A stretch of 60,547 bases of DNA, filler included, from Sluysia triapertura (Eukaryota): assembly GCA_046118255.1 (NCBI GenBank). It is 5 parts of 5 records of this genome, joined end to end, with 100 filler letters (N's around TTAATTAATTAA, not from the genome) between each part and the next. Parts side by side here need not be neighbours in the genome. Positions count along the whole stretch, not along the records: positions 1 to 11,237 come from JBJNIA010186969.1; positions 11,338 to 24,082 come from JBJNIA010084474.1; positions 24,183 to 35,981 come from JBJNIA010169590.1; positions 36,082 to 47,737 come from JBJNIA010182380.1; 1 more part is not named here. The stretch is one strand, 5' to 3'. Below the pieces are notes generated by a model, which worked only from the letters and a program-made list of their open reading frames with translations, did not search any database and was not told the DNA's origin. The translations under genes were made by a program, and so were the position numbers. Below, piece by piece: positions 6,312-45,500 of this stretch. How positions within the stretch are numbered: the first letter of the stretch is position 1; every line of letters starts with the position of its first letter.

Positions 6312-8027
6312 TGTGATGGCCAACCTTTTCATTCAAAATTTAAATCATTATCACACATACTTAATATCACTTTCTTAGCATTTCACATTTTACTTTTTCA
6401 GATTCATTAAAATTCTTTAACATTTTAAAACATTTTAAACTCATTAAAGTTTTACTCAACATCTAAAATCATCGAATGCATACTTCAAAAGTTTATTCAA
6501 AACATTTCAAGCTCACAATTTTTCAACGTTAAATCATTAATATCACTGAAAAACATTAAATTCACATTTCAAAATCATTTTAAATACTATAATCAAAATG
6601 GAATTTCTTTTAACATCTTTAACTAAATTGTTACCTTTTTTCTCATTTATACTATGTAAATTCTTTTAAAAATTCAATAAGAATTAGAAGAAAAGTAAAG
6701 AAATTTTATTTCAAGAATTTAATTTATTTTATCTTAAGAACAAAAATAATGTTAAAAATTTATGTTTTGATTAACTTTATTTATTTTTATTATGTATTAT
6801 TTTATTTTTATCATTTATTTTAAGTTATTATTATTAACATTATTATTACTAAGTTTTATTTTATTATTCATTATTTAATTTGTCATTTTATTTTATGTTA
6901 TTATTATGCATTTTATTACTGTTAATTAGATTTACCAACATTCACTCTAGTATCATCAATTAATGTTTTAATGGCCATTATCATCAGCATTTTTATCATT
7001 ATTTCGGTTGTCAGTGTGGACAGTTACTTAATCTTTTTAATAAAATCTCATTACATTTAACGTCAACATATCTATTACTTAAATGTTTATTTGTCATTGG
7101 TTTTTATGTGGCAATAGTAACATTAAAAATAGTAACAGCATCTGTTCAAAATAAATAAAATTCAGAATTAGAAAATTACTTTTGTACTTAATGAAAAATT
7201 TAATTTGTTATAAGGTCTAGATTATTAAAAATGAATCGTAAAGGTCAAAAGTTAATTCATTGTAATTGTAAAAGATTAGCCTTTCACAAAATTCATCTGA
7301 GATCAAACAATTAGTAATAAAGAAAAAAGCATATTTTGATGATCAACTTGAAATTCGTATCATATCTCCGATACGATACGAAACCCAAATAATAGATCTT
7401 GATCACTATTTTTAGTAGAAAATAAATTTAGTCCTGCATATTTGATCGAGTTAATGTTGAAAAGTGATCATAATAGCGACAAATGTTTAGAACAAACTCA
7501 AAACATCAGTGATGTACATGCTTTAACAAATTCAAATACTAATTATGATGCCATGAAATTATGTTGTTCAATTGATGCATCTACAAAATCGATAACTATT
7601 GTCGTTACAAGTTCTACACTTCAATATTTAAATTTATCCGATTTAGTAATGCCTTCTCGTATTCCCATATATCAATTCTCGACTCAAACGCAAATTGTAA
7701 TTCGAACGAAATCATCTGTTGATTCATTAAATGTTAATCAATACAAATCAGCACTTAATTTAGATCCTTCCCATGCATATTTATTATCAAGTAACATTCC
7801 TGTAATATACTTGACAGATATAAATTTTGATCCAACATTCTCACATATTGCAACAGAGATATAACAACAACCGATTTGGTGATTAACGCAACTAACCATG
7901 ATCAATTCGTACCTACACACCAATTAAAATAGAATTCCATAAAAGGATAATTCAGAATGACGTGGCACCTGTCTACATTGCATATCGTTAGATGGAAGAT
8001 GTTCAAAGTACGGTTTTAAATGCAAAT
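6312..8027 (+). mobile_element. TGT-terminated cargo element, copy A (arm + spacer + regulatory module + CCCH gene); cut by N gap
   Basis: Starts TGTGATGGCCAACCTTTT; C/A-rich arm to ~6650 shares AATATCACTGAAAA(A)CATTAAATT with 42740-42762; AT spacer; TTGTC-N6-GACAG at 7008-7023; cargo ORF from ~7231. Confidence 0.7.
7231..8027 (+). pseudogene. Intronless decayed CCCH zinc-finger gene (cargo of copy A)
   Basis: Fragmented frames including ORF 7442-7864; after a 1-bp frameshift the end reads TWHCLHCISLDGRCSKYGFKCK(gap), homologous to TWHCFYGIIQNGECYRYGRNCIYGH at ~41345-41420. Confidence 0.65.
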
Positions 8028-11000
8028 NNNNNNNNNNNNNNNNNNNNNNNNNNNNNNNNNNNNNNNNNNNNNNNNNNNNNNNNNNNNNNNNNNNNNNNNN
8101 NNNNNNNNNNNNNNNNNNNNNNNNNNNNNNNNNNNNNNNNNNNNNNNNNNNNNNNNNNNNNAAATTATTCTGCTGTTAGTTTACATCTATTATTTTATTA
8201 TTATTTTACATTATTATTATTTCTTTTATTACTTTAGATTATCGTGGATCACTATGACTCTGACACTTATAATAATTAAATTAAATTAAATTAAATTAAT
8301 TTAGCATCATTCAAAGAAATACATAATTATGAAAATTTGACCTGTGATAATTCAATATTATTTTGACTATACGAAGATTTTCCATGTTTTATTATGTATT
8401 TAATTAGTTAATGTTTAATTTTTAATATATGATTAATATATAGATAAAATATTACCTTTTCTTTAATTGCAGTTGCTAAGTTTTGAATAGAAATCTCATT
8501 TTTCTTGTTCGTTATTTTTAATTTTAGCAATTTTAGTTTTATCCTTAAATTATTTCTGTACTAGTTTCAATATTTTAATAAGTTAAAATAGTACTTTTTG
8601 ATTATATTATAATAATTTATTTTTACAAATTAATTAATTTATATTTTTGTTTTTGATTTCAGTTAATGAAATGTTGAATAAACTACTTAAAAGATTTGAA
8701 ATTAAAGTTGAAGCTGATAAGTTAATACTCATAACTTTTCAGTTCATTTTAAAACTATATAAACAATAGTTAAATAAAATTTAAAACTATTATAATAGTT
8801 TAAAGCGTTATCAATTATTACCCATCTTTTAAAAACTTCTCATAAAGGTTTGTTTTATTCGCTAAGAATATTATCAAATCTTTCGAAAATTTCTAAATTT
8901 TTGCTTTTTGTTTTTATGCTTGATTTTCAATCTCTAAACGTGGATAAATAAGAGAATGAAAATTATTATAAATATAACCACATCTGCGTTTTTTCTTTCT
9001 TCATTTTCTAATTAATGTATAATTATCTTTAAATTGGGTATTTGATATAATTCGTAATTCTCGATTAAAGTAAAAACCAATAAGATTATCTTTATGTACT
9101 TTAAATTTAGGAATGACTAAAACTTGTAAATCATTATCATTTTTCCACAATACATAATATTGTTAAAATTCATTGTGTTCTTAATTTTCTTAGTTTCTTT
9201 TTTAATGAAAATGTAAATTTTCTATTTTGTTAAAAGCAATTTCTCGAATATCAACATTTGCATGAAGCTATTTAACATTTTTTGTTTACTGTCTAAAAAA
9301 CCTTTGGCAATTTTTTAACTTTTACATTTTCAATATCGCCTCTTTCATTTACATATAAATCTTTAATTGTTGCATTTTTTATTTATATTTTTGTTTTATA
9401 TAAGTTACATTTACATGTTCTACAATAATTATCTCTACACTAATTAACTCTAATAGGATACTCTAACTTTAATAGGATAGAAGTAATTTTACACATAACA
9501 TACATCTATAGATGTAAAACATGCAATGAAATTCTTAAATCATTGTAATTATTTTAAATATTTTCAAAACACATAACTATTATTCAATTGGTATAACATA
9601 ATAGATAAATGTACTTGTGTCAATTGTTTTTCTATAGTTTTAAAACTATTTTAAACTTTAAATGAAGAAAAACCCTAAAATATTCCATTCGATAATATCA
9701 CATTCAATGTTATTATTTATATCAGTAATTTGAATGATTCTTTATAATTGTGATCGTTCAAATAGCATTATTTAGAGGCGATTTAGTAGTTTTTAATACA
9801 TTTTTGGAATATCAAAACTTAGAATATTATAGAAAAAGTATTATTCAATTTCAATTTGTGATTACCTGTTGGAATGAATATAAATTATGAGTAATCAAAA
9901 TTTAATAACAAATTAAATATTCAGGCTTAGAACAATATTTATCATTAACAAAATTATTATTATATTACTCTTATAAGCATTTATTACTTACTCCATCAAC
10001 AATTTATTTATTTAACATTTATTTATTACTTATTCAGGCTAAAAACAATATTTATTACTATTGTACATATTAATAAAATTTATTGTTATACATATTAACA
10101 AAATTATTTATATTTATTGTTTCGACAAAATTATTGTACACACTATTATGTAAGTTAAATTATTAAAAGCTAATAATAAACGATATAAATATCAGTTACA
10201 AAAATTCATATCACAATTTTTTTAAGTACAACAAAGAGGAGTATTTATCAATTTGGGAATGTTTTGAGATTGAAATTGTGAAGTAGGAGATATAAGTGAG
10301 TGATGTTTATTGTCTAGCCTGAAAAATAAAATCTTTAAAAATTTATTATTTTCGTTTGTTTTTTTAGTTTTGTTTATAAAATAAGTAATTATTTAGTTAA
10401 TTGTTATAAATAAATTTTTTCGTGTTTAATTTTATTTGTTTGAAATAAAACTAAAAATAGAACTCCAAAAACTTGATATTTTTTGAACAAACTAAACATA
10501 TAAATTGAATCCTTTGAGTAATAACAATATCTCAGGAGTTAAAATTGATTAAAGTTTAAAATGAATAACTTACTCCGCACTTCGATTTCAGGTGAGCGAA
10601 ACGATTCCAGATAAAATAGACATACTAGATAATTGCAGATGATATTTTCAGAATAAGCTAATATTAATAAGATTTTACCTCCAGAGAAATATGTTAAGAT
10701 AAAATATCACTAGAGAAATTAAAATTATTACTAAAAGATTAACAGTTATACAAATTAAGATTAAGACATCAGTTCTAAACATTTAAATTTCACGTCAATT
10801 CATTATATTAATAAACATGCCACATAAATTTTGAAGATTCAATCGTCAATAGAGAAGTTTCACTAAAATTTTAGCAGAAGCATTTTATTTACAAAGTTTA
10901 AATTTTACAATAAGATTCATTTAAGAAACACTTTGTTAGACGACAAATGATATAAATAAGAAATATCAAAAAAATAAATCCAAATTTAAAGTAGGTGAGA

Positions 11001-11078
11001 ATTAGAATTTTTAAGATTAAAAATAAATTTGAAAAAACAGTGGACATCAGAAATATTTGAAATATTTCTAATAACTTA

Positions 11079-11237
11079 TGTGTTGGCCAACTCACTGACC
11101 TAAATAAATTTCACAAAAAATTCTGCCTCAAACGTATTAAAATCTTATAAACTTTCAAGCATACATTACACATCTTTAAATCCATTTAAAACTAACGCAA
11201 CATAACTAAAACCATATTTTCAACAACATATAACAAT
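11079..11237 (+). mobile_element. TGT-terminated element, copy B (terminus and start of arm only)
   Basis: TGTGTTGGCCAACTC followed by G-poor, C/A-rich sequence up to the segment end. Confidence 0.6.
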
Positions 11238-11417: not shown

Positions 11418-11975
11418 GTAGAAAAACCAGATGAATGGTTACGTTATGGCAATCCGTGGGAAAAAGGTCGTCCAGAATATTCTTATCCGATAAATTTTTA
11501 TGGTTACTGTATAGATGATAACCAAGGTAAACGAAAATGGGTAGATGCTAATACAGTATTCGCTATGCCTTATGATACACCTGTTCCTGGTTATCGCAAC
11601 AATACATGTAATACATTACGATTATGGTCAAGTAAAGCGCCAACCAGTTTTAATTTAGGTACCTTTAACACTGGAGCTTATATTGATGCTGTTTGTGAAA
11701 GAAATAATGCGGAAAATATTTCTCGAGTTTTATATCCAAATGATAACTTCTTCGAAGGCAAAGAACTGCGTTTAAAGCAACAATATTTTATGGTGGCAGC
11801 TAGTTTACAAGATATTATTCGTAGATATGGTAAAGGAGCTGGTGGAGCATCTAGAACGAGCTTCGATGAATTTCCAGATAAAGTAGCAATTCAGCTGAAT
11901 GATACTCACCCTAGTATAGCTATACCAGAATTAATGAGGATTTTACATGACTTGGAAGGAATGGAATGGGAGAAA
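11418..11975 (+). CDS. PYG: Glycogen phosphorylase, internal exon (N-terminal half)
   Basis: TAG|[16 protein letters not shown]...[13 protein letters not shown]...[26 protein letters not shown]...[19 protein letters not shown]...MEWEK|GT; intact, with phase-0 introns at both ends. Confidence 0.97.
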
Positions 11976-13657: not shown

Positions 13658-13710
<53 letters not shown>

Positions 13711-14971: not shown

Positions 14972-15063
14972 TACCGTAGATCAATTTCAGTTTTAAAATC
15001 CAAAGTGCTAAACACCTCCTAAGTGCTAAACACCTCCTAAGTGCTAAACACCTCCTAAGTGCT
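14972..15063. repeat. 18-bp tandem repeat (AAGTGCTAAACACCTCCT x3.4) next to a TACCGTA transposon-like end
   Basis: Exact units at 15003, 15021 and 15039, partial unit at 15057; TACCGTAG at 14972. Confidence 0.85.
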
Positions 15064-15779
15064 GATTAAATTCGTATATTTTTATTATATTATATGATTT
15101 ATATACATACTAAGTTTTTAATGCGTCTTACATTTTCATAATTATGTTTTTTTAATAAAACTTATAGGTGTTAGTGATTATTTAATTATTTTATAGTAAA
15201 CGATTTAAACTCCTGACTTGTTTACTAGATCTTAAAATCCAAAAATTTAATCATTATTTACGCTAGACCTTAAAGGTTATTTCAATTTTTATTTACAAAA
15301 TAGACCATAACAGCTAGTTCCGTTTGTGAATTTCTATTTAATCACGCGACTGCATTAAAATCTACACTATATATTGATCGCATAATAATAATTATCTAAT
15401 ACGTGACTAGGTGATACTTACCTGACAACTTAAAACCTACGAGACTGTTTGTTTTTTGAAATTCTAAAATCAAATTAGGACGTCACCTTAATAGATATAA
15501 ATCGTACTTATTAAGTGGACCAAAGCCTCTAGATGATTAAGATTTTAAGAGTAAAGTTATTATAAAATAGTTATTTAAAATTTTTTTGTTAAAATTAAGT
15601 TTGTCGAGAACGTTAAAATCAATTACGAAATGAATCGTTATTTTATTTTTCTTTAATAACGTAACAAATTGAAAAACATTAGAATAAAACTCGAAAATTG
15701 TTACATTAAAAATACTACACATTGGGAGAAAGGGATTCATGAAAAAATAGATTACTAAAGATAATAGACAGTAGACATT

Positions 15780-16430
15780 CATTGATCGTTCAGTAATTCT
15801 AAATGGTTCTCATCATTTTCTGCAACCAAATAATATTGTAAAGGATCAGGCCATAAATCATATTTTATCATATCACCCAATGCCACCGTAGAATTAGAAA
15901 TATCATATGTAAACTAATGCATCTGATACCGGATCCTTTGCTACCAGAGTCAACTTTATTGTCTGACTCATTGTTGGTTTTAACGTACTTTTTTTCCATC
16001 TTTCCATTCCACTCCATCACACGTTGTTTTAATTTCTGATTCACCAACATGTACAGATTTAGTAATGATAGCATCAGTAAAGTAATCATTTGGAACAAAT
16101 GTTAACATAATTTTAAAACCTGATTTAATATCATCAAATTCTTCTGCATCGAGGCTAACTAAAGATTGTAATAAATACTCGTCGAGTAATTAAAGTCATT
16201 AACCGTGGATGATTACTAAGAGTATTGATCCAGAAATTTGGAATAGATTTTATTAAGTTCATACGCTGTTGAAATAGTGGTTGTCTTTTTAAATTATACT
16301 TCTCTACCTTGCTCATTCAATTGATCAATATCGCATTGTACTTCAACATTTCTTTCTATTAAAGAATTCAACGTTGGATCATCATCAACATTGCCGTTAC
16401 ATTCAGATTTTGGGATTTTAGGAACAAATG
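15780..16430 (-). pseudogene. SET: Intronless decayed SET/TAF-I (NAP-family histone chaperone) copy
   Basis: Frameshifted pieces IERNVEVQCDIDQLNEQ, RQPLFQQRMNLIKSIPNFWINTLSNHP, FDDIKSGFKI..F..NDYF and LGDMIKYDLWPDPLQYYLV align in order with SET (IEHIDEVQNEIDRLNEQ, RQPFFQKRSELIAKIPNFW, FEDIKSGYRI, LGEVIKDDIWPNPLQYYLV); no introns. Confidence 0.9.
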
Positions 16431-16899
16431 TTATATTTCTATTGTGTTTGTTACAAATCGTGGCGAAAAATAACTTGTGTTTTACTACTGATTTTAGTAG
16501 TTCATTTATAGCGTATAAAATGGCATCTTTCAACGTTGCCGTANNNNNNNNNNNNNNNNNNNNNNNNNNNNNNNNNNNNNNNNNNNNNNNNNNNNNNNNN
16601 NNNNNNNNNNNNNNNNNNNNNNNNNNNNNNNNNNNNNNNNNNNNNNNNNNNNNNNNNNNNNNNNNNNNNNNNNNNNNATGATAATTTAAAATGCTGAATG
16701 ATTCTTGTTTCTGTAAATTTTTCTGATACCAAAGACTAACAGAAGAAATAAGATATACTTTTTTATTTGGTAACTATAGTACAAATTTTATTATAAATTT
16801 TTATTTTCTATATAAAATTTATAGATTTCAAAATTATAAATTTCAAAAATTATAATTTCATGATTATATAAATAAATTAATTAAATTCTGAAGTTACGA

Positions 16900-17820
16900 A
16901 TTTTGTTTTATTATGGTAGATTTAGTCTTTTGAATGCATCTTTAGAATTTTGTGACGTATGTGAAATTTTGCTTGATGATAAAGCATGCTCTGATTTATT
17001 CGATGTCATAGATTGAGCATCACATTTTTGGTCAACAATATTTATACTGTTTCGATTTTATTACAGTAAATTATTCTATTATTGTAGCTATAAGAATTAA
17101 AATTTACAAATTCTTTTAGTTTCACAAATAATATATCTTTAATAGATTTATTCACAGGAGTAGTTTCATTACTGTTATTATCGTCATTACTATCACTGAT
17201 TCGTGGGGACTGTGAGATTTAGCTTTAGATTTAAAATTAGATTCTTTATGTGATTTGATCATTTACAAGCCAAATATGGTATATGACACAATGTCGGGAA
17301 TTTTCTTATCACGTAATAATAATCCGTAATAATAATAATCATATTTTTAATGTAACATTGATTAAATGTGCTTGAGTCATTTGTTTGATCATTCAATCTT
17401 TAATAAAAGAACTATCATCAGTTCTATCAACAAATAAGCACTGTATGAATTCCAGTATATCTAATGATTCAGGAAAGCTGTTAAGGCCTTTCGCATTGTT
17501 GATATTAGTCAAAAAATTAGGATAAATATTATTCGTGTTGTAATGAGCTGCTCGCAACATCTACAAATATCACGAAAGAATGTACGAATTGGTTTAATAT
17601 CATGATGATACAATTGACAAATATTTTCGTGAATCAATCCATTATTGACAGAGTTAATTTAGAAAACAGAAGGGAATGCAATTGAAAATGGATTTAGTTT
17701 GTTCGGTTTTAGTAATGAATTTGAAATCGTTCATCATGACACTTACATGCACCTACATGGGTTTCTGGGCATTCTCTTTTCAGTGCCAAATTTATCTTTT
17801 TTTGAAATTGGTGGAAACCA
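16900..17820 (-). pseudogene. Decayed Cys/His-containing ORF (first cargo of copy C), family unknown
   Basis: Fragments ECPETHVGACKCH and ENICQLYHHDIKPIRTFFRDICRCCEQL, followed by Ser/Asn-rich frames with many stops. Confidence 0.35.
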
Positions 17821-17829
17821 GAAGAAGTA

Positions 17830-18047
17830 AAATTGAGTAAGAAGAGAATTATAAAAGAGAAATTAAGAGAAGCTGAAGATGTTTTTATAGAAATTTTATT
17901 TTTTTGATAAAAATTGAATTTTTGAACTGTAAGAATTTTAAGTTATGAAGGTTTAATATTTTATGTTGTTTAGTTGTTATGTGGTTGAGTATTTGTATGG
18001 TTGTTATGAGGTGTTTATAATTCCGAATGATGGGTTGGGTCAGCACA
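17830..18047 (-). mobile_element. TGT-terminated element, copy C (terminus and arm)
   Basis: Minus strand begins TGTGCTGACCCAACC, followed by a G-poor C/A-rich then pyrimidine-rich arm; more diverged than the other copies. Confidence 0.5.
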
Positions 18048-19661
18048 AAGATTATTTCTCTTTCGNNNNNNNNNNNNNNNNNNNNNNNNNNNNNNNNNNN
18101 NNNNNNNNNNNNNNNNNNNNNNNNNNNNNNNNNNNNNNNNNNNNNNNNNNNNNNNNNNNNNNNNNNNNNNNNNNNNNNNNNNNNNNNNNNNNNNNNNNNN
18201 NATAAAGTTTAAATTTATTTTAATACAAAATTATTTAATAAATAGTTTTTAAATCATTAATTTATTAAATGTAACTTTATAAAAATAATACTACTAAATA
18301 AATATATTTAAATAAAATGTTATCTTTAACACAATATATAAAACGATTGTTTACATCAATTAATTAATTAATTAATTAAATTTATTTTTATTTTTATTTT
18401 TATTTTTATAATTTTTGATCAAAATTTTGTTTCAATTTCCACAAACAAATTATGTGATACATTAAAATGTGAAATAGAGTAAAACAAAAAAATTAAATAA
18501 TTGAAAAAATAGTTTAAGTCTCAAATTAAAATCATTTAAATAATGTATAATTGTTTTCTGGTTTCGATGCATTTTGAAAAATTATTTAATAATTTTTACT
18601 CACATTTTATTTTCATAAAATCATTTTCATATTTTATTTATACTTATATTTTTTATTTTTTATTTTTATATTTTTATATTTTAGTATTTCAATATATACT
18701 GTGTTTCTCTGAAAATACAGGATGATTTTAATTTAAGACCTAACCCTAAATTAAATTCTGGTTGATAATCGATTAGGACACCTAATAAAAGTCAATTAAT
18801 GGCTTGAGATGGCGTTCAATGTATTCTTTAGTATATAAAATAAAATAAAATAGATTCTGAGATACTTACTGACTATAACAAGATTCTGATTGTGATGATT
18901 CACTTTCAGACAATCTTCCAAGTAAGACTTTATTAGCAATTATCAAACATTTCTTCTTTGTCGCACACTGTCCACGAGAATGACTTAAAATAATTAAATT
19001 CAGTTAAACGAAAACTTCGCAGAAACTTTGGAATCCAGTGTGACTTGCAAAACATTCCAGAGGACAACGACCATATGGTCATTTTGAATGATTCATAGTT
19101 AGTGGTTTTCAAACATAAAACATGTATTAATTAGTAAATGTAGATAAGTTTATGCATGTTTTTTGTTTATTTAGAAATTTCATATATAATTCTCTACTTT
19201 GTAACTTTGTTTTTCGATAGATGAAAATAAGTGTCATATTTCAAGAATGATCCGATTGAAATTGATAAAGATAGAATGAAGAAATTGCATAATCATCTGA
19301 AGAACCCTCTAAAACGACTCAGAATAATAATAATTATTATTATCATTATTATTATTATTATTACTTCAGCACACTTTTAAAATTCGTATTGGATTTGCAA
19401 AACTATATCAACCTTTTCATTCCTACTGAGATCTGTATGTCCCAATAAATTTCTAATAAACAATGCAAATATTTATGAGTATGCATGTTTGTACATGTTT
19501 TCTACAATTTTATCTTTTTGTTTTGCTAGTTTTACATAAAACTTGATTGTATTTCTTGATTATACGCACTGTGTGATTTAAAAATAATTTCTTATTTAAA
19601 ATTTAAATATAATTTATATGTTTAATAAATGTCAGAAGAAAGTATATTGCATGGACTTTAT

Positions 19662-20175
19662 TTAAAATTCAGTATAGACACCATCATTCGCCACCAGTTT
19701 ATCAAATCGACCAGGAATCGCATCAATTGATTTCACAAGAAACTCGTGCGAGATGAAAGCCATAACTTCACATATTCGTCCTTCAAGTTCTTCCAAATTT
19801 TTTGGTTTTGTTGAATAGACTTTCTTTTTTAACCAAACGCGGAGAAAAATGTCGCATGATGTTAAGTCAGGACTTCTGGATGGCCTTTTGTACGAACCAC
19901 GACCCATCCATCTTCCAGGAAATTTATCATTGAGCCATTCACGAACAATGGGGAGTTCCATCTTGCATGAAAATCAAATCTTCAATATTATCCCAATCAT
20001 GCTCAACATATTGAGGTACCTTTCACATTCATAGATCACGAAGGAACCCTGTGATCATAAGTTTTTCATGACAATTCTTGATATTCTTTGGGTCATGTTT
20101 TCTCTTAATGAATCTCCAAACTTCGTAACGTGTAGCTATCTGGACACATTCTTGTAGTGTAAGACGTCCAACCAT
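19662..20175 (-). mobile_element. Tc1/mariner (IS630) superfamily transposase relic, DD37D/DD41D-like
   Basis: FMQDG, VREWLNDKFPGRWMGRG, RSPDLTSCDIFLRVWLKKKVY and LEELEGRI motifs with frameshifts. Confidence 0.85.
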
Positions 20176-20426
20176 TTTTGTAGGGTTTTGAAATTTCAAA
20201 CAAATTAATTAAAACAAATTCACAAAACTGATCTAAAAAGAAAACGATAGCATAGATTAAGTTGTCATACGTTAAGTAAGATATACACAGAAGTTGAGCA
20301 ACTTATTACGGTATTTGAATTAAATTGTAGATATTTGAAAATATGAAGTTACTTTTCATAATTGCTCAATTACTAATTAACAATATGACATACTGAATAC
20401 ATTTCTTGTATCTTTACTTATATTAG

Positions 20427-20748
20427 TGTGCTTATTGTACAAAATATTGTTGTAATTACAGCACCAGCAACGCCAGAAATTGTTCTGAATAAAAAATGTG
20501 TCAAAACCAATAGTAATCCTTCGATTATAATTGGTAGTGTTCCATCTAGAAGCGACAATTCGACAAATTTTCAATTTCAACATCAACAACAACAACAACA
20601 CACAAATAATTATGCTAATGTCGATGAATCATCTTCTGCTTCGACAACAATTTCATCGACTAATTCAAGAACAACCTATCAATCATCTAGACAAGTCTCT
20701 TCGGCAAATACGAAACGCAATATTCAAAATACCCATTCCTACAGTATA
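20427..20748 (+). CDS. Unidentified Ser/Thr/Gln-rich exon
   Basis: TAG| open frame VLIVQNIVVITAPATPE...HQQQQQH...HSYSI |GTAAGT, then a 52-bp intron to TAG at 20800. The next frame (20801-21004) is open but may derive from a Tc1 HTH. Confidence 0.55.
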
Positions 20749-21399
20749 GTAAGTTTAATTTTATTGTTTAATTTAAAGAAATATTAAACCTTATTTGTAG
20801 AAGCTCTATCTAATCAACGACAAGGTCACATTTGACAGTGAATCAAACTTCGAAAAAATCCAAGTAATTAAAATGAGTAAAAAAGAACTTGCTGAAGAAC
20901 TTGAAATCTCCGTACACCCAGCGGAACTCATGGTTCACATTAGAAATACGAGGAATATGTTTATGTATCATATTCTGGTAGAAATTGTAAATAATGTGTT
21001 TTGAACCTTTTTCCGAAAGAAGACTTGCAGAATTATCTAAATAACCCTTCTGAATTAAAATGATGTTTGGTATCAAACTTTCCGATACAATTCAATGTTT
21101 TAAAATCTTTCACTTCTTACTAAGGTCTAATGTAAATTCGAACTGTTCAGCCTATTCCATTCTCGCTCTCGCATCTCCTTCCATTCAACGTTGAAATGCT
21201 GAAATGCTTGCAGGAGAACACGTAGTCGCTTTCGTAGATTGTAGACTCCTAAAATATAACAAATAAAAATTAAACAATGATTGAATATTAAAGAATATTA
21301 TTAATTTAAGTATGAAGTGCATTTAATGATTTGAGTATTAAGGACAACATCATTGTGATTCTCATTACGTATCGAATTGTTCATTTTTTGGACATCGTT

Positions 21400-22600
21400 G
21401 GTAGCCTTTATAAGATTGGTCATGGATGATAATTATGTTGGTACCAATATAACTAATTTGATTGACGGTATGGTGAAATTTGCATGAGGATCAGAATTTG
21501 CTGCATCGTCCTAAATTGTTGGACTGGAATTGGAATTGTCCTAATCTGATTTTCCTGATTTGAGATGGTTTTGGTTATAGATGCAGTTGTTAAGGAATTA
21601 TTGAAAGGATTCGAAACCTTCGAAATAAATCTTTCTCCCATAGTAATAATTGCATTCATATAAGTTTTATCAATGTAACGAGGAATACTTGGTAAAAATC
21701 ATATAACACTAATCTTAGCCACCAAGTCAAAATCTAATTCTGCATTATTAATTTCTTTTAAGTTCGTGTATAAATGAAACATAAGATTGTAAAATATCTT
21801 GGGCATCTTTACATTACTATTCAATTCTGTTGTAATGATGATTAAAGATCGCATAACGCGCCAAACATTTAAAAAAGGAAACGCATTGATATACATTAAA
21901 TTTTTACTTATGAATTTGATTAAATTACAACGCCAGGATGAATTAAGAAGTTTGAAACCTAATTTAGTTGGTAATTCGTCGATTCGTATAATATGTTGAC
22001 TAAATTTGATTGTATCATTTGTAAAAACGAACCAACTTTTAATGCTTCTAATGGAATATTAAAATTACTAAAATCTAGGATTTGCAATATCATACAACCA
22101 GTAGACAAAGGTATAATTGACGAGGACCGTTGACAGTGAAGTACTTTCGAAATTACCGGTTTATTTCCAAACTTCTCCAAAATTACAAAAGCAGATTGAA
22201 TATAGCTTTAAATCTTTCAATGTGTCACCGTCTTTGTTGCACCATGATTTTGGAATATTCGAAATGTATAAATTTGTTTGAACTTTTTCGTTTTCATTAG
22301 GATATTTAACAGTATAATTTGAATAATTTTGTTGAATGTATAAGACTGTCTCGAGCATCATCTGCAGTCATGCGGTTATAAACTTCACACTTGCCGTCTT
22401 CTTCGATGGATACTTTAACAGACCTTACTTGATTTTTATCCTTAGCCAATTCCATTATATTTTCATCGGTAAAATGAGACGGTAATCCTTTCAAACATAA
22501 ATTCGTTTTCGATACTTTACCAACAGTGTCACATTATTTGTCGTGATATTTTTATTGCTGACTATCAACACAGTCGGTTGTTCCATCATTAATAAATTTA
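21400..22600 (-). pseudogene. Intronless decayed RBMS/shep/SUP-26-like tandem-RRM gene (cargo of copy D)
   Basis: VSKTNLCLKGLPSHFTDENIMEL ~ RBMS1 [33 protein letters not shown] ~ PTNLYISNLP; LEKFGNKPVISKVL ~ LKPFGQVISTRIL; frameshifts, no introns. Confidence 0.8.
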
Positions 22601-22933
22601 TCATTTTTTGTCCAATTTCTACACAAATTAACAAAATTGATCGTTATTTTTATTGAATGATAAAAATTGGTGTTTTTTGATTTTCTTTTTTTGAATTAAA
22701 ATTTTTATTTATCTTTTATTTTGAATATTTAGCACGATTTTTATTTTACTTGATGATGTGCTACTATTGGTCTGTATTTGTCTTGAAATTGACTGATATA
22801 TTTAGCTCATCAAAAATCACTTCGAGCCAATCATTAAATTGCATTAATTAAGTACACTATAGATAGCACGTTTAGCATGTCATATTACACTAAATGTGTC
22901 TGCATGCTTCTATTTTTTAATGATGTCCATATT

Positions 22934-23132
22934 GATTGGACGTCCAAGCACAGCAAGTAAAATTACGATGTAAAAATAGAACTGATAGGACGCCCAATCA
23001 ACTGTTGTGTTAATGTTATTGGAATTGTAAGAATGTATGCATGTGTATTACAAAATACTAAATATTGAGCTATACATGTTCTGTGTACTATTATTATTGA
23101 TTATGTATTAAGCAACTGTCATTTGCCGACAG
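22934..23132. promoter_or_regulatory. Palindromic module of copy D (inverted CCAAT pairs, CTGTC-N7-GACAG)
   Basis: GATTGGACGTCCAA 22934-22947; TGATAGGACGCCCAATCA 22983-23000; CTGTCATTTGCCGACAG 23116-23132; located between the arm and the cargo gene start. Confidence 0.6.
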
Positions 23133-23861
23133 TTTACCAAGTGATGTGAACTGATTTTAATTAAAACTGTTGGTTAATGACAGGTTAAATGAGGTGATAG
23201 CAACTAATAATAATGCTAATAATATTTATTACAATAATTAAAATTAATAATAATAAAATTAATACATAAATTCTTATAATATGTTTCGTTCTTTGCATGA
23301 TCTTTCTTTAGCTAATTTAAATAAAATTCTTTCAAAAAAAATACGTATAAATAAGATCATTTTAAATGCATAAATTTATTTCTTTTAAATCTTTTCGGAA
23401 TCTTTTCTTTTCTTAAAATATAAAAATTTCCTGGCAAAAGAAATTAATTAAAATTCTTTTAAAGATCTTTACTACAAATTAATTTACACGAAGTTCTTTT
23501 GATTACACTATTTTAAATTGATTCTGAATTGTGATTCTAATGTTTTTCGTTGATATACAAGATTGGATATCGAAGGATTGTAAACTTAAAATATTTTGAA
23601 TTAATTTTGACGTTTTCTACGATAATTTAAGATGTAAATTGTGATTCAAATGTTGTAGGATTGTGAGATTTAGATGTTTTAAATGAGATTTGAAATGTAT
23701 ATTAATGGTTTGAATGTAAGAATGATTTTGATGTTTTGAAATGAAATGATTTTAGAGGACCGAAAAAAGGATGTATATAAATATAAAATGTTAGTAAATG
23801 AGATATTATAAATGAAATGATTATTTTAAAATTCTTTAAGTTAAAAAGGTTGGCCACCACA

Positions 23862-24082
23862 GAATTAACTTTGACGAAAATCATATTAATAACCGCACTG
23901 ACTGGACCAAGATAATATTCTCAGATGATTGTTGTAAATACTATTGTCATCATCTAAAGGATTCAAAAGATAATTTGTGGTAGAAGATCAACTATGATAT
24001 GGAAATGCCATAATTTATGATAAAAAGCTAGCTTTACGTGTGGTTCCATCAACTCTTAATGGTGATAAGTACTATGATTTGA
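23862..24082 (+). mobile_element. Tc1/Tc3-like transposase relic
   Basis: RINFDENHINNRTDWTKIIFSDD (cf. RLEFA..H...DWSKVVFSDE), TMIW, STLNGDKYY. Confidence 0.75.
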
Positions 24083-27592: not shown

Positions 27593-27860
27593 TTTAAGGG
27601 TTCAAAAATTTAATAAAATTTAATATTAAAACAAAATATTTTTTGAGTTTATTTATATATTCTTGAAGCGCTGATGTCATTTTTTCAAAAAGTGTGGTGT
27701 TCGTTAAAAAAGTATTCGTTAAGTAGAGATTTATTAAATCATAAGGTTTGTAGAATCATAAAACACGAACCCCAATATACTTCTATACTATTAAATAAAA
27801 ATATTAAAATAATAAGTTATGTTCAAAACTAAATAACGGCATCGAAATCATATCACCTTT

Positions 27861-36896: not shown

Positions 36897-36897
<1 letters not shown>

Positions 36898-37700: not shown

Positions 37701-40172
37701 TTAATAATAATGAATTAAGTTCATCTTTATTTGCAACATAAAACACAAACAAAAATAAACACGAAATAAAATAGACAACAATGTTATTAAATACTGTCAT
37801 CGTTTTTGTGTATCTTAGATGCACTAGTTCATACACTTCTATAAAACATACCATCCAACCCGTATAGGGAACGGTAAAGTGTTCAATAATTCTCTGCTCC
37901 GGAGATGTTAACTTCTTGTGAAAGTCACATAAATACTAAGAACATACTTTAAAATGAAGCATATCTTAAAAATGATCTATGATAAGTATTCTTACTACAA
38001 TCACCTACTAATGGGTAGCTACTTGAAAATGTCGTATTTTAATTATAAAAATTATTTTTAATTTTGTCGGAATCAACTGCAAAATTGACAAAATCTTTTA
38101 ATTACGCATTATTATTATTATTAATTTATTATAATGTGAATTGAAGTGTCCAAATATTACTACAGTTTATTTAATAATAAACTTTATTATTACGTATTCA
38201 TTATTTGATCTTACAACACATCCATTATTACAGTTAACCGTTTGAATATTTACGTTATTATATCTTAAAACTTTCATTAATTGACATTTGTTATTGTAAA
38301 CACTAAAATAAGAACACTTTAAAGGCAATCACAAAGAAACAAAATATAAGTTGTCTATGAATAGAACATAGAATGTTAAGGGTTAAAACAATCAAAGCTT
38401 CTTATCAATATAACATAAAAATAATTAAATGCAATTGAACATCCGAACCTTGTAAAAAACATGTATGACAAATATTTATAACATTAATTTGATTTTCCAT
38501 AAATTTTACTGATTATTTCTAAGTCAAAAATCAAAAAAATATCAGTTATCTTAAAATAGTGGGCTGAAAAGAAAATGAATCTTACTGAATTATTATAATT
38601 TTAAAATCAAGATTTGAGTTTATACTGTATACTACCTATTTCTGCATGATTTAGTGGAAAATGAGACGATAAATTAATTGTTTGTTATAGTGTAAATTAA
38701 ATATACTATCATCATAAAATGTAAATTATATACTAAATATTTTCACTATATAGGAACGCTTTTTCTCAAAAAAATAAGACATGGATAAATCAAAAATTTC
38801 CAAAAAAAGCAATATCGAAATTTAAATTTAAGAAATATGGAAAGTGCAAAACATTCAAAATTTATTAGTAAATGAATTCATTTTTCTTAATTAATTAATT
38901 ATTTATATCTATGTATTACATTATTGCTAAAAAGAGGTTGAATTAATCGGACCAATGATAATTTTATCTTTATTAGGTTTGTATTAAACCGAGGACTAAA
39001 ACACTCTAATTGTAAACAAAATCGCAAGCAAACATCAACACAAAATAACACATTCCTTACAAATAAGATCCTAAACAAACTCCAACGCAATCTTACACAA
39101 AATATCAAACAATATACATAAATCATAAACACAAATTTTATAATGTCACATTCTTTAAAATCTTAACTTCTAGTTAAAATTCTTTGTACTCATTATTGTT
39201 TGAAATACTGTCGTTATTTATTTATTTTTATTTCATTGATAACATTGATATGCGATCAAACATTTATATTTACAGATGATAAGAAATTGTACCTTATGCA
39301 TCATCATTATTATTTTTTTATTATTATCATTATTGTGTAATTAGATTAATTTTTGTCGACAAAGATTTCAATATTTTATGATTTATTAGGATTTCCTATG
39401 TAATACGTACATAAATAATAAATAATGAAACCGTAAAATATTTTAACGTAAATGAAGTTAAATTACAATATAAATATTAGGTAAACATAAATGTACATAT
39501 GGTTAACAGATGTTAAGTTTTAAATGCGAATTAATTATATGGTATGAAACAATTTCTTAATTTCATTCGTTTTTACAAAAATAAAATATTATTATTATTA
39601 TTATAAATTTGAACATGTAGTACGAAAACTAAAAATAATACTAATAATTTTAATAATTTAAGATCAAAAATATTTCTTAATTCTATGTAATTTCTAAAAT
39701 AAATACTATTTCATTTTTTCAATAATACACTTGTGTATTTGGTTACATTATTAGACTTACAAAGCGTTCTTTCAAATGAGAAATTAGGGAAAGTGAATTT
39801 AGTGAAGCAAATATTATTGAAATAATGTCAAGAAAATTTTGTAGTTCTTTTTCAGAAAACCTATTATAATAATTATTTTTATTAATATTATTATTTTATT
39901 ATTTCATTAATTTATTAATGTTTTTAAAAAAATCAATATCATCTCAAGAATTGCTACCGGTAGTAAGGATTTGGTAATAATTAAATAAAATTACTTAGAC
40001 AGGAAATTAAAAAATGATGTTCTGTTACTTGATAACTTACGAATCTATAACCAATGAATTTGAAAATAAAAAGAAATGGTAATCCAACATTTTATGATTA
40101 TTTCTCAAAATCAAAGAATTTGAAACTATCATTTTATGATTAACATGAAATAACGCAGCACTTTGAACTTTA

Positions 40173-40800
40173 ATGTTAGTTAAAGTCCCTATTGAAGTTT
40201 ATTTTGAAATATTTCACTATTTGGACATTCACAATTTGTCTTATTTACGTGATCAATTTAAGACTTACAATGATACTGTAAATAATTATTTGATTAATTC
40301 TCTCAACAAACCTCATGAGAAACGTCATGAAAATTCCTCAATTTCCATACTATTCAATTATTTTACAGATTATTATTTATTTTACAGATTATTATTTAAT
40401 TTACAGATTATTATTTAATACTTCAGTTTGGAATTGAGATTTAGGCTTAATAAAGCTTAAATGAGTTAGATATTATGTTTGATTCTATCTCGTATAAACT
40501 TTGGTCTATCCCTTCAAAAATAATTATATTATTATATTATGATTATTTTCATTAAAAGTACTGTATCGACAAGTTACATATTTTGTATGTACACAATACG
40601 GTTAGTTTGCAATTCTCTTCAATGTCGAAAATATGCTTTTATGCATATATTATTTTCCTTCAAATTTATAATAATCAGAAAATTTTCTGCAAGACCATTT
40701 CGGAAATTTACATATGTCACGCAAGCACAATTCTTAAATAAACATTTAGTCAAAAAAATTGGACACGATATTATCAAAATCTCAACATTATTTCAAGTTT
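40173..40800 (+). pseudogene. Intronless F-box protein relic
   Basis: MLVKVPIEVYFEIFHYLDIHNLSYLR fits the F-box consensus LxxLPxEIxxxIFxYL; frames break downstream. Confidence 0.6.
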
Positions 40801-41109: not shown

Positions 41110-42110
41110 GCTTACCTCGACGAGACTAAGATTGAGATTCTAAAAAAGAATAAAAAATATAAATATATAATTCGATTTATACAGAAATAAGTTAAATTAA
41201 AATTCAGAATTACTTTTAAGTTCTCCTTGTTCCTCGAGTCTAATGATGTTGATGTCAAGCTTGATAATAAAGTACTGATCCTACCATGGTGATCACTGAG
41301 ATTCGATGTTAAACCAAACATATCCATGATTTCAAAAGCTTGATGACCATATATACAATTTCTACCATAACGGTAACATTCACCATTCTGTATTATTCCG
41401 TAAAAGCAATGCCATGTTTGTAATATTTGTCTTGATTGACGTAAGGTTGTGACTTTATACGAGATGTGATGCTACTTTAATAACGTTTCAAAAGGCCAAT
41501 CCTTGCTTTTACTTTTGACTAGTTTTTTATTGATATTGTTTTATTTGTGATCACGTATGAGTCGACATCAATAGAGACATCTATACTTTTATTTATCTTC
41601 ATCACAATATAGATTAAATCATATTGTTTAATTTGAGGTGCATGAAATAGTTCAGTCAATTTTCTTATATTAACATGTTTTACAACTTGCTTGTCTACTA
41701 ATCTATAAGTATTAATATTAAAAAGCAAAAATTTCTTAACAGACAATGTTTTTAGTTCATTTTCTGAACATTGACTATATCTCATATTCGAAGATGAAAT
41801 TAAATAATAGAGATAAGACTACAATCAATATCAGTTGAATGAGTTATAATTTTGTATAGATATTTTTATGATGATCATAATTGTTAACAAATTTTGTTTG
41901 TATCGAATTCGTTACATCGTTTAACAAAGAAATTTCGTTAGATTCGTTTTCCAGATTATCTTTTACTTGATCAATATTGACGGAACAGACAAAATAACCA
42001 TTTTTGAGATTATGTTTTTTAATAAAGTTAAATACTGAAGTTGTATCAAAATAACTAAATAACATATAGAACGGGAAACTAATTGTGTTTTCTGTATTCA
42101 TCATTGGACG
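41110..42110 (-). pseudogene. Intronless decayed CCCH zinc-finger gene (cargo of copy E)
   Basis: Collinear ORFs 41844-42104, 41519-41785 and 41112-41327; QTWHCFYGIIQNGECYRYGRNCIYGH (C-x9-C-x6-C-x3-H). Confidence 0.7.
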
Positions 42111-42300
42111 TCAACATTTAAATATTAAAAATGATAATAATTTTTAGTTAATACTTTTTAGAATGATTTTTTGTCTCCGTGAAATTATAAATTTGTTTTT
42201 ACGATAGCGATAAAAATGACACTCTTAATATTCTGCTGAAAAATAGTAATAGGTCAACGATGTGATGTAAATGTATTAACACACACTGGTTGTACTATGA

Positions 42301-42503
42301 TGATTGGACTTCCAATCCTAATTAGTGATAAAAATACAAAAGTAGAATTGATTGGAAATGATTGGACGTCCACACTTGAATGGTGATGATATTAATAGAA
42401 ATGAAATTGATTGGAAGTCCAATTTTGAGACAACAATTTAATAATATTTACTGACAATGTCAGTACTAATCAAAAAGAATTACAAAGCTGTCAAGGATGA
42501 CAG
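42301..42503. promoter_or_regulatory. Palindromic module of copy E
   Basis: TGATTGGACTTCCAATC 42301, GATTGGACGTCCAC 42360, GATTGGAAGTCCAAT ~42409, TACTGACAATGTCAGTA ~42450, CTGTCAAGGATGACAG 42488-42503. Confidence 0.6.
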
Positions 42504-45500
42504 TGGTAGTAACCACAAAATAACGATTTTAATTAAAAATATTATAATATTATAATTATAATATTATTATAATTATTATTATAATTATAATAAATAAACG
42601 AAATAATGATTATAATAAAGTAAAATATATTTAATAAAAACACAAATCTTTTCTCTTTCTGTCAACATAATCTGTCTTTAAATGACTTTCTCTTCTTAAC
42701 ATATTATTTCTGATTATGTCTAAATGGTTTCAAGATGTTAATTTAATGTTTTCAGTGATATTGGAGATTGAATTGATTTGAAGATGTCTATTCGTCGATT
42801 TAGGATGTAGTTGTGATTCTATTGTTATAAGGTAATGAGTAAATGTTTTAAATGACGTTTAAATAGACACTGATGGTTTTGGATGTAATTATGATTTGTA
42901 AGCTTGTGAATTGTAGATTGATGGTTTTAAATGTAATTGTAATTCTGATATTATGAATTATGGGTTGAAATGTTTTAAGTAAAATTTAATGTGTGTTAAT
43001 GGTTTTGGATGTCGAAGTCATTTTGGTGCAATAAAATTGTAACTTAAAATGTATTAAAATGAGAATTGTTCTAGTGGATCTGAAGAAATAAAATATGAAA
43101 AAGGTTTTGATACAAAAATTGGTAAATGTTATAGAATATGCAATATCTGGAATTAAATTTAAAATGTTTTAAATTAATTTTTATGTATGTGACTGATGGC
43201 TTTCGATGTCGAATATGATTTTGCTGTTGTGAAATTTTGTGTTTAAAATGTTTGATAGCAATGACAATTGTGAACATTCTGAAAAAATGATTTTATTGTG
43301 CATTGATGAAATAAAATTCTTAAAGTATTTGGTTGACCACGACACCGCGAACAGTTTTTGAATCAGAATTTTTTTCAACTAACCTAATAAATAATTTAAT
43401 AAAATGAGTAATTATTGTTAAATTCAAAGTCATTTCTCGAATGAGTTTATTTAAACTTTCCACAAATGCATAATTATGATATATCGCTTTACAAATCTAA
43501 TTAAGTACCTATAATTTATGCTTTGTTTTATTTAGTTATTTATTTAGTTATTAATAGTTACATATTAGGTATTTAACATTTATTTGAGAAATTACTTTTG
43601 AAAAGAATACATTTACTTGTTAGTAGTGATCGGTTATCAATACAAAAAAGAATTAAAGTAAATTAATACTAACATAAATTGAATTAACTAATCTTAATCG
43701 AACATTAACGTAAAATGAAAATAAATTCCACTTAAATATATAGATTTATTAATTGAAATTAGTTATAAAACTTATCTTTGACTGCTCAGAATTAATAATT
43801 TAATAACTTTAACTTTCTATTAGCAAAACTTTAAAACTCTTAGCTATTTAAATCTTCAAAAATGCATGTATTCTGAAATATTAAATCAAAATATTTATAA
43901 ACAAACAGTTTCACAATGGGTTTTCAAAATTGTATCAACTAAATAGTCAAGTATCTTATGTCGTACCGGTAAGTCATATTTAACTCATATTCAAGTAATG
44001 AAGGTTTATTGACACAACAATAAGTTTATACAAATTGTGAGAACAATACATGTGCAATGTATATAATATATGTGAACACAAAATCAAATTACTAAATTAA
44101 ATAAAGAAAAAATTAAATTAAGTGGAAATAAATTAAGTTGTAAATTAAATTAAATTAATAAATTAAAATGCAAAAAATAATTATTATCAAACATATTACT
44201 ATTAAACATTATCAGAAAAAATAATAACCAATAAAAAATTAGTCAGTAAATAGAGTTATTTATACAATATATTTTAGAAGTCTATTCGAGAATTTAAAAA
44301 AGCAACAATAATTACAGAGAAAAACACTAAAATTTCTATTTAAAAATCAGTAATCATCATTTTAAATTCATCAAAAGAAAACTGCATGTATATATAAAAT
44401 ACTATTTTTATTTATTTTTTAATATTAAATATAATATTAAAAATAAAAATAATTTTATTTATTAATATTAAATTATTGATACAAAAATCATCAAGTGAAT
44501 CATTTATGTAATAAAAAACTTACTAAATATGATAAAGACAAAAATTAAAAGACCTTCTACCTGCTATATATAATTGAAAGATAAAGATAAAGTCCTTTAG
44601 GTAAGCCAAACATTGTTTGTAAGTCTTTCACTATAGGCAAACCAATTTATAAATTGGCTTCTTTACATAAACAGCCTAATTATGCAAAAAGGCAACACAA
44701 TTTTATTCAACAGATTTTACGGAATTCTAATACATGAACTCTTAATTTAAATTTATTCAGTCAATGAGCATGCATTAACATTTTTTTCTGTGTAACTTCC
44801 CACCTATTATTTCAATTTAAGATTTCAAACCAGTTATAATTCGTAACTTAAAAATTTATGACAGCATATAATTTTAATACCAGATCTCTAAACTTATGAA
44901 CATCGACGTAAAATTATTGAACTTTCGATTTAGAAATACTTTGAAACTGTTTATAAATTCGTATACAATTTTAATATTTCTTACAAATATCGTCATTTTT
45001 GTAATTTTGTGCTTAACCTTTATTTAACATTTAAATTAATGGTCAAAATATGCGAATGTTTTAAAATCTTTTATGAATATTTTAATGATGAAAAATAGTT
45101 TAAGTAGTTGAGTTTAAAAAATCGGTTTACAGCAAACTTTGCGGTTTTTATGAAGGTTAATGCACTACGTCATATAGTTCTTTTCTTATTTATTTCTAAA
45201 ATATCTTTCTTGTGGTTAATCTTTCAATATCATTAATTATATAACCGATTTCATTTGTATAAATAAGACTCGGTTTTTGTTATTATTCGGCCAATTCCTT
45301 ATTTATAACATTTAATTTTATTTTTTAGCTTTGGTCATATAATTTATCTATTTACATTCGTTTTGTGTTAGCTTGTATTCATTTGTATACATAACTATTT
45401 GTTTATCGTTCATTCCGTAAGTCTTTCTTTGTTCATTAACTGTGGCACATTTCCACCTGTTTTCTAAAACCTACTTTGTTGACTCATTTTTTTCAAGGCG

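What the first reader, a model, noticed from the sequence alone, without database searches (positions are those of the whole stretch)
6312..43344. Candidate new gene-capturing mobile element family with TGTGNTGGCCAACC termini
Seen: five ends in three separately joined segments share a motif: 6312+ TGTGATGGCCAACC, 11079+ TGTGTTGGCCAACT, 18047- TGTGCTGACCCAACC, 23861- TGTGGTGGCCAACC, 43344- TGTCGTGGTCAACC. Each is followed by a G-poor, C/A-rich arm. In copies A, D and E the order continues: AT spacer, palindromic module, then an intronless regulator gene in the same orientation (CCCH finger twice, RBMS-like RRMs once). Copy C is followed by a Cys-rich ORF and a SET copy. Two ends abut other sequences sharply (a coiled-coil ORF at 6311, a Tc1 transposase at 23862), as insertions would. 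Known: TGT termini mark retroviral-integrase-type elements (LTR elements, Ginger DNA transposons), and Pack-MULEs and Helitrons capture genes. Inference: a non-autonomous cassette with a fixed end and promoter and exchangeable cargo biased to RNA and chromatin regulators. No transposase or RT is attached and the far end is not clearly visible.
Basis: partly seen in the sequence, partly recalled or inferred. Interest (0 to 1): 0.9.

Follow-up and report, generated by a model that had tools for sequence, protein, structure and literature searches.

The report
Gene-carrying flatworm transposon, one fixed end
In a genome that is likely a flatworm's, one short DNA end occurs five times, and three copies continue through a related repeat arm and a predicted promoter into different broken gene copies; it is likely an old jumping element, probably rolling-circle, that would pick up and multiply host regulator genes.

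Summary
The five ends are real (4 sites within 2 mismatches, 0.16 expected; C has a 1-nt insertion). A, D and E share a homologous arm (A-D 78% over 148 nt) and spacer; module similarity is weak. B and C share only the motif and G-poor composition. D is an exact insertion: 28 contigs of the flanking high-copy repeat continue differently right at 23861. Summed contig depth makes D's arm high-copy and its module and cargo roughly tenfold less so. Cargo: D carries a flatworm RBMS-type double-RRM fragment lacking two inferred host introns; an intronless SET copy lies beyond C's gap; CCCH calls for A and E are weak. All cargo is broken. No second end, primer-binding site or adjoining purine tract was found. 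Best reading: the left end of a non-autonomous, DNA-level gene-capturing element, rolling-circle-like (0.4); rivals are a TG..CA integrase transposon and an LTR derivative. Gene capture is known; I found no such family reported for flatworms. No whole genome, Repbase or Dfam was available.

The parts
6312..6325 (+). End A, terminal motif
   Evidence: 0 mismatches
6326..6660 (+). Arm A, G-poor degenerate repeats
   Evidence: homologous to arm D, 115 of 148 identical at 6462-6613
6780..6920 (+). AAT-rich spacer A
6930..7230 (+). Promoter-like module A (predicted; no GGACGTCC; shares short motifs with D and E)
   Evidence: module alignments of A not above shuffles
7231..8027 (+). Broken cargo A: unknown domain plus CCCH-like finger, cut by a gap
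   Evidence: (zf-CCCH_UNK E 0.022)
10540..11078 (+). Flank of B: decayed ORF that reads like a Maverick/Polinton integrase C-terminus (recalled motif)
   Evidence: no Pfam or PHROG hit
11079..11237 (+). End B with short G-poor arm, cut by scaffold end; second arm type or other subfamily
15820..16543 (-). Broken intronless SET (TAF-I/NAP family) copy with a foreign N-terminal part and no acidic tail; link to C crosses a gap
   Evidence: human SET residues 30-75 (E 2.9e-10) and 79-202 (E 6.9e-18); multi-copy by depth
16900..17800 (-). Broken ORF pieces behind C, unidentified
17850..18047 (-). End C (motif with 1-nt insertion) and short G-poor arm
   Evidence: depth bin 520
21130..21248 (-). Candidate last exon of cargo D (40 codons)
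21249..21368 (-). Candidate 120-nt sense intron in cargo D
   Evidence: GT..AG with T-rich acceptor, open across the junction; 2 of 31 such pairs in the window are open
21369..22153 (-). Unidentified broken C-terminal part of cargo D
   Evidence: no hit
22154..22590 (-). RBMS-type RRM1 and first half of RRM2, flatworm type, no introns
   Evidence: collinear with P0125 residues 21-149 at 22518-22154
22780..23200 (-). Promoter-like module D (CCAAT boxes, GGACGTCC; predicted)
   Evidence: 14-nt exact match to E
23440..23847 (-). Arm D, variable-number degenerate repeats
   Evidence: joints and loose end within the arm, depth 3683-5015
23848..23861 (-). End D, exact insertion junction
23862..24082 (+). 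Interrupted high-copy repeat, Tc1-like by recalled motif
   Evidence: depth 16942 and 28 contigs with another left side at 23861; no hit
41116..41213 (-). Candidate 74-nt sense intron (41213-41140) and 24-nt in-frame exon followed by a second donor in cargo E
41214..42107 (-). Broken cargo E: unknown domain plus CCCH-like finger
   Evidence: (E 0.0048)
42110..42520 (-). Promoter-like module E (five CCAAT-type boxes, GGACGTCC; predicted)
42700..43330 (-). Arm E, expanded repeats
   Evidence: three hits to the A-D arm profile, best E 1.6e-9
43331..43344 (-). End E, terminal motif
   Evidence: 2 mismatches

Best explanation
Copies A, D and E share a terminal motif and a homologous repeat arm ahead of different broken genes, and they are likely the fixed left ends of an old non-autonomous transposon that moves as DNA, most likely by rolling-circle copying (Helentron/HLE2-like). 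Shown: five ends, arm homology in three, an exact insertion of D into another repeat, multi-copy arm, module and cargo, RBMS-type and SET pieces without introns, no second end in the readable sequence. Inferred: a RepHel enzyme made elsewhere would nick at the left end and copy on through arm, promoter and cargo until a variable stop, which would give one conserved end and no conserved far end; spliced gene pieces (retrocopies) and genomic exons would be added behind the element's promoter and then multiplied with it; B and C would be ends of sister subfamilies. The copies in this window are dead.
For: One-endedness: no second motif on either strand above background, no further arm copy in the window, no arm partner in 4.4 kb behind D's module or 6.0 kb behind E's, while D's multi-copy part fades at about 21100-21300 (depth 204, then 42-49) and the left half of the interrupted repeat is absent (0 matches at 3 mismatches). 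All three long copies have the same polarity, end to promoter to sense cargo. D's target reads T^T on the element strand (loose-end consensus ends in A, next base A), the HLE2 rule (PMC11417382 passages). A near-palindromic 10-bp core sits 3 nt from the end, followed by variable-number repeats (joints 23544-23689, 23716-23578) and an AAT-rich tract, as described for HINEs (PMC4067079). Candidate sense introns in D and E cargo favour movement as DNA. Bat Helitrons carry promoters, retrogenes and exons together (PMC4224331 passages).
Against: The five ends start T-G-T, the textbook integrase end (PMC2836005 passages). Only 2 of 5 junctions show TT, so either the element starts with G or the target is not T^T; HINEs have runs of T at the boundary. 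No terminal hairpin in 5 of 5 ends (z -0.02 to 1.61). No 3' subterminal repeat or stem-loop and no RepHel found. The motif does not resemble the 15 Helentron subTIRs listed in Table S2 of PMC4067079. T^T rests on one site. Spliced, partial, fused, sense cargo is the signature of LTR template switching. Depth is summed over contigs at 80% likeness and is no true copy number; X1 may be the sample the window came from.
Confidence: 0.4

Rival explanations
1. A cut-and-paste DNA transposon with short TG..CA inverted ends (Ginger/IS481-like integrase, Pack-TIR type): A, D, E are left ends with promoter and cargo, B and C are right ends with a different subterminal arm.
For: T-G-T in 5 of 5 ends, with unrelated flanks; two arm types; sense introns in cargo allowed; multicopy Pack-TIRs exist in animals (PMC8277862 passages). 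The motif plus T-run also resembles Buster-type hAT ends (recalled, untested).
Against: TGTNR met in 3 of 5; Ginger1 CCGG/CCGT flank met in 0 of 5 and the AT-rich RTATAY target not seen at D; Ginger TIRs are 40-270 bp and symmetrical; no inverted partner behind D or E; A-B and D-C lie in direct, not inverted, orientation; B-C arm similarity not significant.
Confidence: 0.25
2. A 5' LTR of a non-autonomous gypsy-type retroelement that took up host mRNAs by template switching, or a multi-kb LTR with the cargo inside it.
For: TGT start; U3-like order of repeats, AT tract and CCAAT boxes; partial, spliced, fused, sense cargo amplified again, the four features in PMC5131818 section 10; giant gypsy elements with accessory host domains in planarians (PMC6431247 passages).
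Against: No shared CA+TGG primer-binding site between end and start codon (E has none); no purine tract adjoining any of 5 ends (C has a purine-rich stretch 7 nt off); no 3' repeat behind D or E; 3 of 3 long copies would have to be 5' LTRs; sense introns in D and E should be lost in an RNA cycle.
Confidence: 0.18
3. The arm is a short high-copy repeat of its own, and the neighbouring pseudogenes belong to separate duplicated families; the cassette is a coincidence of nesting.
For: Arm depth is about ten times module and cargo depth; module alignments are weak (D-E 60 vs shuffled maximum 56; A-D and A-E not above shuffles).
Against: The interrupted repeat does not resume behind D's arm; 3 of 3 arms lead to the same order and a sense ORF; D and E share an exact 14-mer and the only 2 GGACGTCC sites in 60 kb.
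Confidence: 0.12

Closest known systems
Helentrons / HINEs / DINE-1 (HLE2; PMC4067079, PMC11417382, PMC5148889)
   Same: Near-palindromic motif a few bases from the end, variable tandem repeats and microsatellite, T^T target at the one resolved site, gene capture.
   Different: No run of T at 3 of 5 junctions, no terminal hairpin, no 3' subterminal repeat or stem-loop seen, motif unlike listed subTIRs, no RepHel.
Gene-carrying bat Helitrons (PMC4224331)
   Same: Promoter plus retroposed gene pieces plus exons amplified together; sequential mosaic cargo.
   Different: No TC start or CTRR end; cargo here is in sense behind the same promoter-like block in 3 of 3 copies; retro pieces show no poly(A) in the stretches printed.
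Pack-TIRs, Ssk-FB4 (PMC8277862) and Pack-MULEs
   Same: Non-autonomous DNA element amplifying host-derived genes; long repetitive arm as in foldback elements.
   Different: No inverted partner or target duplication found; firm cargo is spliced rather than a genomic copy.
Ginger1 / Ginger2 DNA transposons (PMC2836005)
   Same: TGT terminus.
   Different: Target rules not met, TGTNR in 3 of 5, no symmetrical TIR, no integrase.
LTR-mediated retrocopies (PMC5131818; maize Bs1) and planarian Burro elements (PMC6431247)
   Same: TGT start, partial spliced chimeric sense cargo, secondary amplification, host-derived regulatory domains in a flatworm element.
   Different: No primer-binding site, adjoining purine tract, second LTR or gag-pol; candidate sense introns in cargo.

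Membership tests
Helentron/HLE2 | Insertion between T and T | tested here: inconclusive
   Met at D, the only resolved target; T precedes GT in 5 of 5 but TT in only 2 of 5
Helentron/HLE2 | Run of T at the element boundary | tested here: not met
   single T in 3 of 5 ends
Helentron/HLE2 | 12-15 bp (often palindromic) subTIR 2-4 nt from the 5' end | tested here: inconclusive
   10-bp palindromic core at +4 (perfect in B, echo match); unlike listed subTIRs
Helentron/HLE2 | Inverted subTIR and stem-loop near the 3' end | tested here: not met
   none behind D or E; far ends may be lost or beyond the scaffolds
Helentron/HLE2 | 5' hairpin (Helitron2 subset) | tested here: not met
   5 of 5 ends fold no better than shuffles
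Helentron/HLE2 | RepHel partner with the same ends; no target duplication | not testable with these tools
   no whole genome
Ginger1/Ginger2 | 5' TGTNR terminus | tested here: inconclusive
   TGT 5 of 5, TGTNR 3 of 5
Ginger1/Ginger2 | 4-bp CCGG/CCGT duplication or RTATAY target | tested here: not met
   flanks TAAT, CTTA, TCTT, ATTC, GCGG; D target
Ginger1/Ginger2 | 40-270 bp inverted repeats at both ends and a gypsy-like integrase | tested here: not met
   no inverted arm or motif in readable downstream DNA; no integrase hit among the 31 ORFs scanned
LTR retrotransposon (gypsy) | TG...CA long terminal direct repeats | tested here: not met
   TG start present; no direct repeat behind D or E; A-B and D-C arms do not align
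LTR retrotransposon (gypsy) | Primer-binding site and polypurine tract | tested here: not met
   decay could have removed them
LTR-mediated retrocopy | Partial, spliced, sense, chimeric cargo | tested here: met
   RBMS-type piece and SET copy; host intron positions are inferred from mis-predicted homologs
Pack-TIR / Pack-MULE | Host-derived sequence between two TIRs with target duplication | tested here: inconclusive
   host-derived cargo shown; second end not found; no complete copy in the window
Any family in Repbase or Dfam | Sequence match of end and arm | not testable with these tools
   no such library held; the motif is not in the full text searched

The most novel reading that the evidence does not exclude
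A flatworm transposon lineage built as an expression cassette: one fixed TGT end, repeat arm and germline-type promoter, into which spliced pieces of RNA-binding and chromatin genes (RBMS, SET, CCCH fingers) are repeatedly fused, given new exons and amplified tens of times because the proteins help the element escape silencing; its mobility would fit none of the Helitron, Ginger or LTR rules fully.
Probability: 0.15. Interest if true: 0.85.

Novelty: new variant of a known kind. Interest (0 to 1): 0.55.

Why it matters
If it holds genome-wide, it is a high-copy engine of gene duplication and exon shuffling in a flatworm, a phylum for which my searches found no gene-capturing non-autonomous family in print, and it would explain multi-copy pseudogene families of RNA and chromatin regulators. 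It would also make a clear test of whether transposons select their cargo: intact copies should show purifying or positive selection and stem-cell or germline expression. For annotation, such copies would inflate RBMS, SET and CCCH gene counts.

Tried and rejected
No whole genome is held, so the genome-wide test asked for could not be run. The look-up of sequencing runs listed one holder, X1; no RNA holder listed. Pattern scan of metagenome contigs gave 2 loci, L001 and L002, both judged chance by reading (bacterial genes; unrelated AT-rich DNA without arm). Homolog searches for D's C-terminal part (402 candidates, none at E<=0.01) and E's CCCH exon (42 candidates, none at E<=1) were empty. 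Atlas gave only weak leads for A's ORF (0.90, bacterial Ig-like). Single-sequence fold of A's ORF failed (pLDDT 34), so no fold search was run. 0 of 10 cargo ORFs are in the protein collection by exact look-up. No Rfam family, no tRNA. A-B and D-C as LTR pairs: rejected, arms do not align. B and C as a shared right-end type: not significant. A degenerate direct repeat near 21300: not found by profile or alignment; 5 of 40 arm-versus-downstream comparisons passed a 6-shuffle maximum by small margins, all behind A or C across gaps in AT-rich DNA, and none was confirmed by the arm profile. Shared modules between cargo ORFs: 5 of 36 pairs reached p<0.06 against 500 shuffles; the two lowest involve the 21-residue A finger, and none is taken as shown. 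Flank identities (Tc1-like at D, Maverick-like at B) were not confirmed by Pfam, PHROGs or PDB. Earlier scan notes: nothing relevant. Grohme et al. 2018 on Burro could not be read.
Full report
Setting. The window is five scaffolds of 11.2-12.7 kb joined by N-flanked TTAATTAATTAA linkers, with three inner gaps, about 24% G+C. It holds intron-bounded exons of glycogen phosphorylase, THOC2 and an RNB-domain gene. The phosphorylase exon is 75-78% identical to trematode and cestode proteins and about 70-72% to Macrostomum, molluscs and arthropods among the 120 hits listed, so the host is likely a flatworm. No whole genome is held; one public run, X1, kept as contigs, holds the DNA and may be its source.

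The observation. The motif occurs at 6312+, 11079+, 23861- and 43344- within two mismatches, plus a palindromic echo of B; 0.16 matches are expected and 0 of 100 shuffles reach five. C at 18047- has a one-base insertion. Conservation starts at the T of TGT; the base before it is T, A, T, C, G. All five ends lead into G-poor DNA (C minus G +21 to +40 per 200 nt, reached by 3.1% of 2324 tiles). Beyond composition, only A, D and E are related: A-D scores 118 against a shuffled maximum of 51, D-E 83 against 53, 115 of 148 bases match in the distal A-D arm, and a profile of the A and D arms hits E three times and nothing else in the window (best E 1.6e-9). B and C do not align to the others or each other. 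A, D and E then have an AAT-rich tract and a block with CCAAT-type and TGACAG-type words. D and E share an exact 14-mer and hold the only two GGACGTCC sites in the window; A lacks the palindrome, and whole-module alignments are weak (D-E 60 vs 56; A pairs not above shuffles). That the block is a promoter is inference from these words and its place 100-300 nt before a start codon.

Mobility. Laying X1 contigs on 15100-24082 at 80% likeness gave depths of 14-25 for the six listed contigs that match this copy with 0-2 other letters. Summed depth is 3683 and 5015 over D's spacer and arm (837 at one listed site inside the arm), 417 over the module, 182-531 over the cargo, 42-49 at 20500-21099, 520 at C's end, 69-166 over C's ORF and 336-1163 over and behind SET. 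The tool warns that this is no copy number; read as a rough ratio, the arm has tens to a few hundred near relatives and D-like module and cargo about ten to thirty. The flank of D is a very high-copy repeat (16942), and 28 contigs follow it up to base 23861 and then continue with other letters that keep its reading frame open. D therefore broke that repeat exactly at its end. The left half of the repeat is not in the window, so it does not resume behind the arm: end, arm, module and cargo likely arrived as one unit. Base 23861 fits both sides, and the target reads T^T on the element strand. Joints and a loose end inside the arm show that copies differ in repeat number. Only 6 of 1874 loose ends were shown, so a sharp common boundary across many copies was not tested. 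The names Tc1-like for D's flank and Maverick-integrase-like for B's flank come from recalled motifs; Pfam, PHROGs and PDB gave no hit.

Cargo. All cargo frames are broken by stops and frameshifts. D: a search of 1.84 billion representatives returned 4 proteins, all flatworm-type RRM proteins where named (Calicophoron, Opisthorchis). D is collinear with P0125 residues 21-149 over 365 bases with two frameshifts and no intron. Truncated or mis-predicted homologs start, stop or carry an insert at the same places, from which I infer host introns; D runs through two of them and its homology ends at a third. The rest of D's ORF has no match. SET: collinear with human SET 30-75 and 79-202 (E 2.9e-10, 6.9e-18), without introns or acidic tail, fused to a foreign N-terminal part, and separated from C by a 134-N gap, so its link to C is not shown. 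A and E each end in a C-x9-C-x6-C finger with sub-threshold Unkempt-type Pfam scores and weak Atlas leads; their N-terminal parts match nothing, nor each other or D. Against 'intronless': E has a 74-nt GT..AG intron with a full pyrimidine tract, a 24-nt in-frame exon and a second donor, and D a 120-nt one that joins in frame to a 40-codon exon; 2 of 31 similar donor-acceptor pairs in the window are open across the junction, one being D's. These introns are candidates, no RNA was seen.

The far end. A weight-matrix scan, the arm profile and alignments of all five arms in both orientations to the DNA behind D, E, C and A found no partner end. D's multi-copy part fades near 21100-21300 without any end motif. 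There is no shared CA+TGG primer-binding site and E has none before its start codon; no end has an adjoining purine tract; no end folds into a hairpin.

Mechanism. One conserved end, one polarity, no far end, a T^T target, a palindromic motif near the end, variable repeats, a microsatellite tract and mosaic cargo with both spliced and intron-bearing parts fit best a rolling-circle element whose left end is fixed and whose stop is variable (features from PMC4067079 passages, section 5 and Table S2; PMC11417382 passages; PMC5148889 passages; retrogene-plus-promoter cargo in PMC4224331 passages). It fails membership on T-runs, hairpin and 3' structure, so I say it works like an HLE2 left end, not that it is one (0.4). 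The invariant TGT keeps an integrase-type TIR element alive (0.25; Ginger rules from PMC2836005 passages; Pack-TIRs from PMC8277862 passages). The spliced, partial, fused cargo keeps an LTR derivative alive (0.18; PMC5131818 passages and section 10; Burro from PMC6431247 passages). Chance nesting is least likely (0.12). These odds are my judgement. That a gene-carrying mobile family exists here I put at about 0.8.

Novelty. Gene capture by Helitrons, TIR elements and LTR elements is known. Ten literature searches (listings only, except the papers named above and passages of PMC11410931) found no paper printing this end motif and none describing such a family in flatworms. Subscription papers, most supplements, Repbase and Dfam were not seen, and the end may be catalogued there as an unclassified repeat. 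Earlier notes of this scan held nothing on it. Verdict: a real, old, multi-copy gene-carrying element with dead copies here; new variant of a known kind; interest 0.55.

Noticed in passing
window 11418-11975 (+) and 55990-60289 (-): Exons of glycogen phosphorylase lie on two different joined scaffolds, covering successive parts of the protein; the scaffolds may be neighbours in the genome.
   Followed up: partly
window 19600-20200 (-) and 18700-19300: Two further high-copy repeats behind D; the first is a decayed Tc1/mariner-type transposase with a weak Sleeping Beauty hit (E 0.011).
   Followed up: partly
window 54233-55635: Long inverted repeat pair (about 250-280 nt, 71-90% alike in translated pieces), likely a TIR element or MITE.
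   Followed up: no
window 4277-4750 and 5314: GC-rich words that look like hAT terminal repeats (recalled) upstream of A; the decayed coiled-coil ORF 5671-6311 cut by A may belong to such an element or be cargo of another copy (weak likeness to E's tail, p 0.006 of 36 pairs).
   Followed up: partly
window 26823-28325: Three orphan intronless ORFs (145, 75, 163 aa) in diverging orientation, virus- or Maverick-like in look; no convincing Pfam, PHROG or IMG/VR match.
   Followed up: partly
window 40167-40415 (+): Short ORF with an F-box-like start (recalled; PRANC E 0.032), 700 nt behind cargo E on the other strand.
   Followed up: no
window 20389-20784 (+): Near single-copy Gln/Ser/Thr-rich exon-like ORF ending in a splice donor, directly behind D's multi-copy part.
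   Followed up: no
window 14999-15063: 3.6 copies of an 18-nt tandem unit, 97% alike.
   Followed up: no
window 58987-59241 (-): DDE_1 (pogo/Tigger-type) transposase remnant inside a phosphorylase intron (E 2.6e-6).
   Followed up: no
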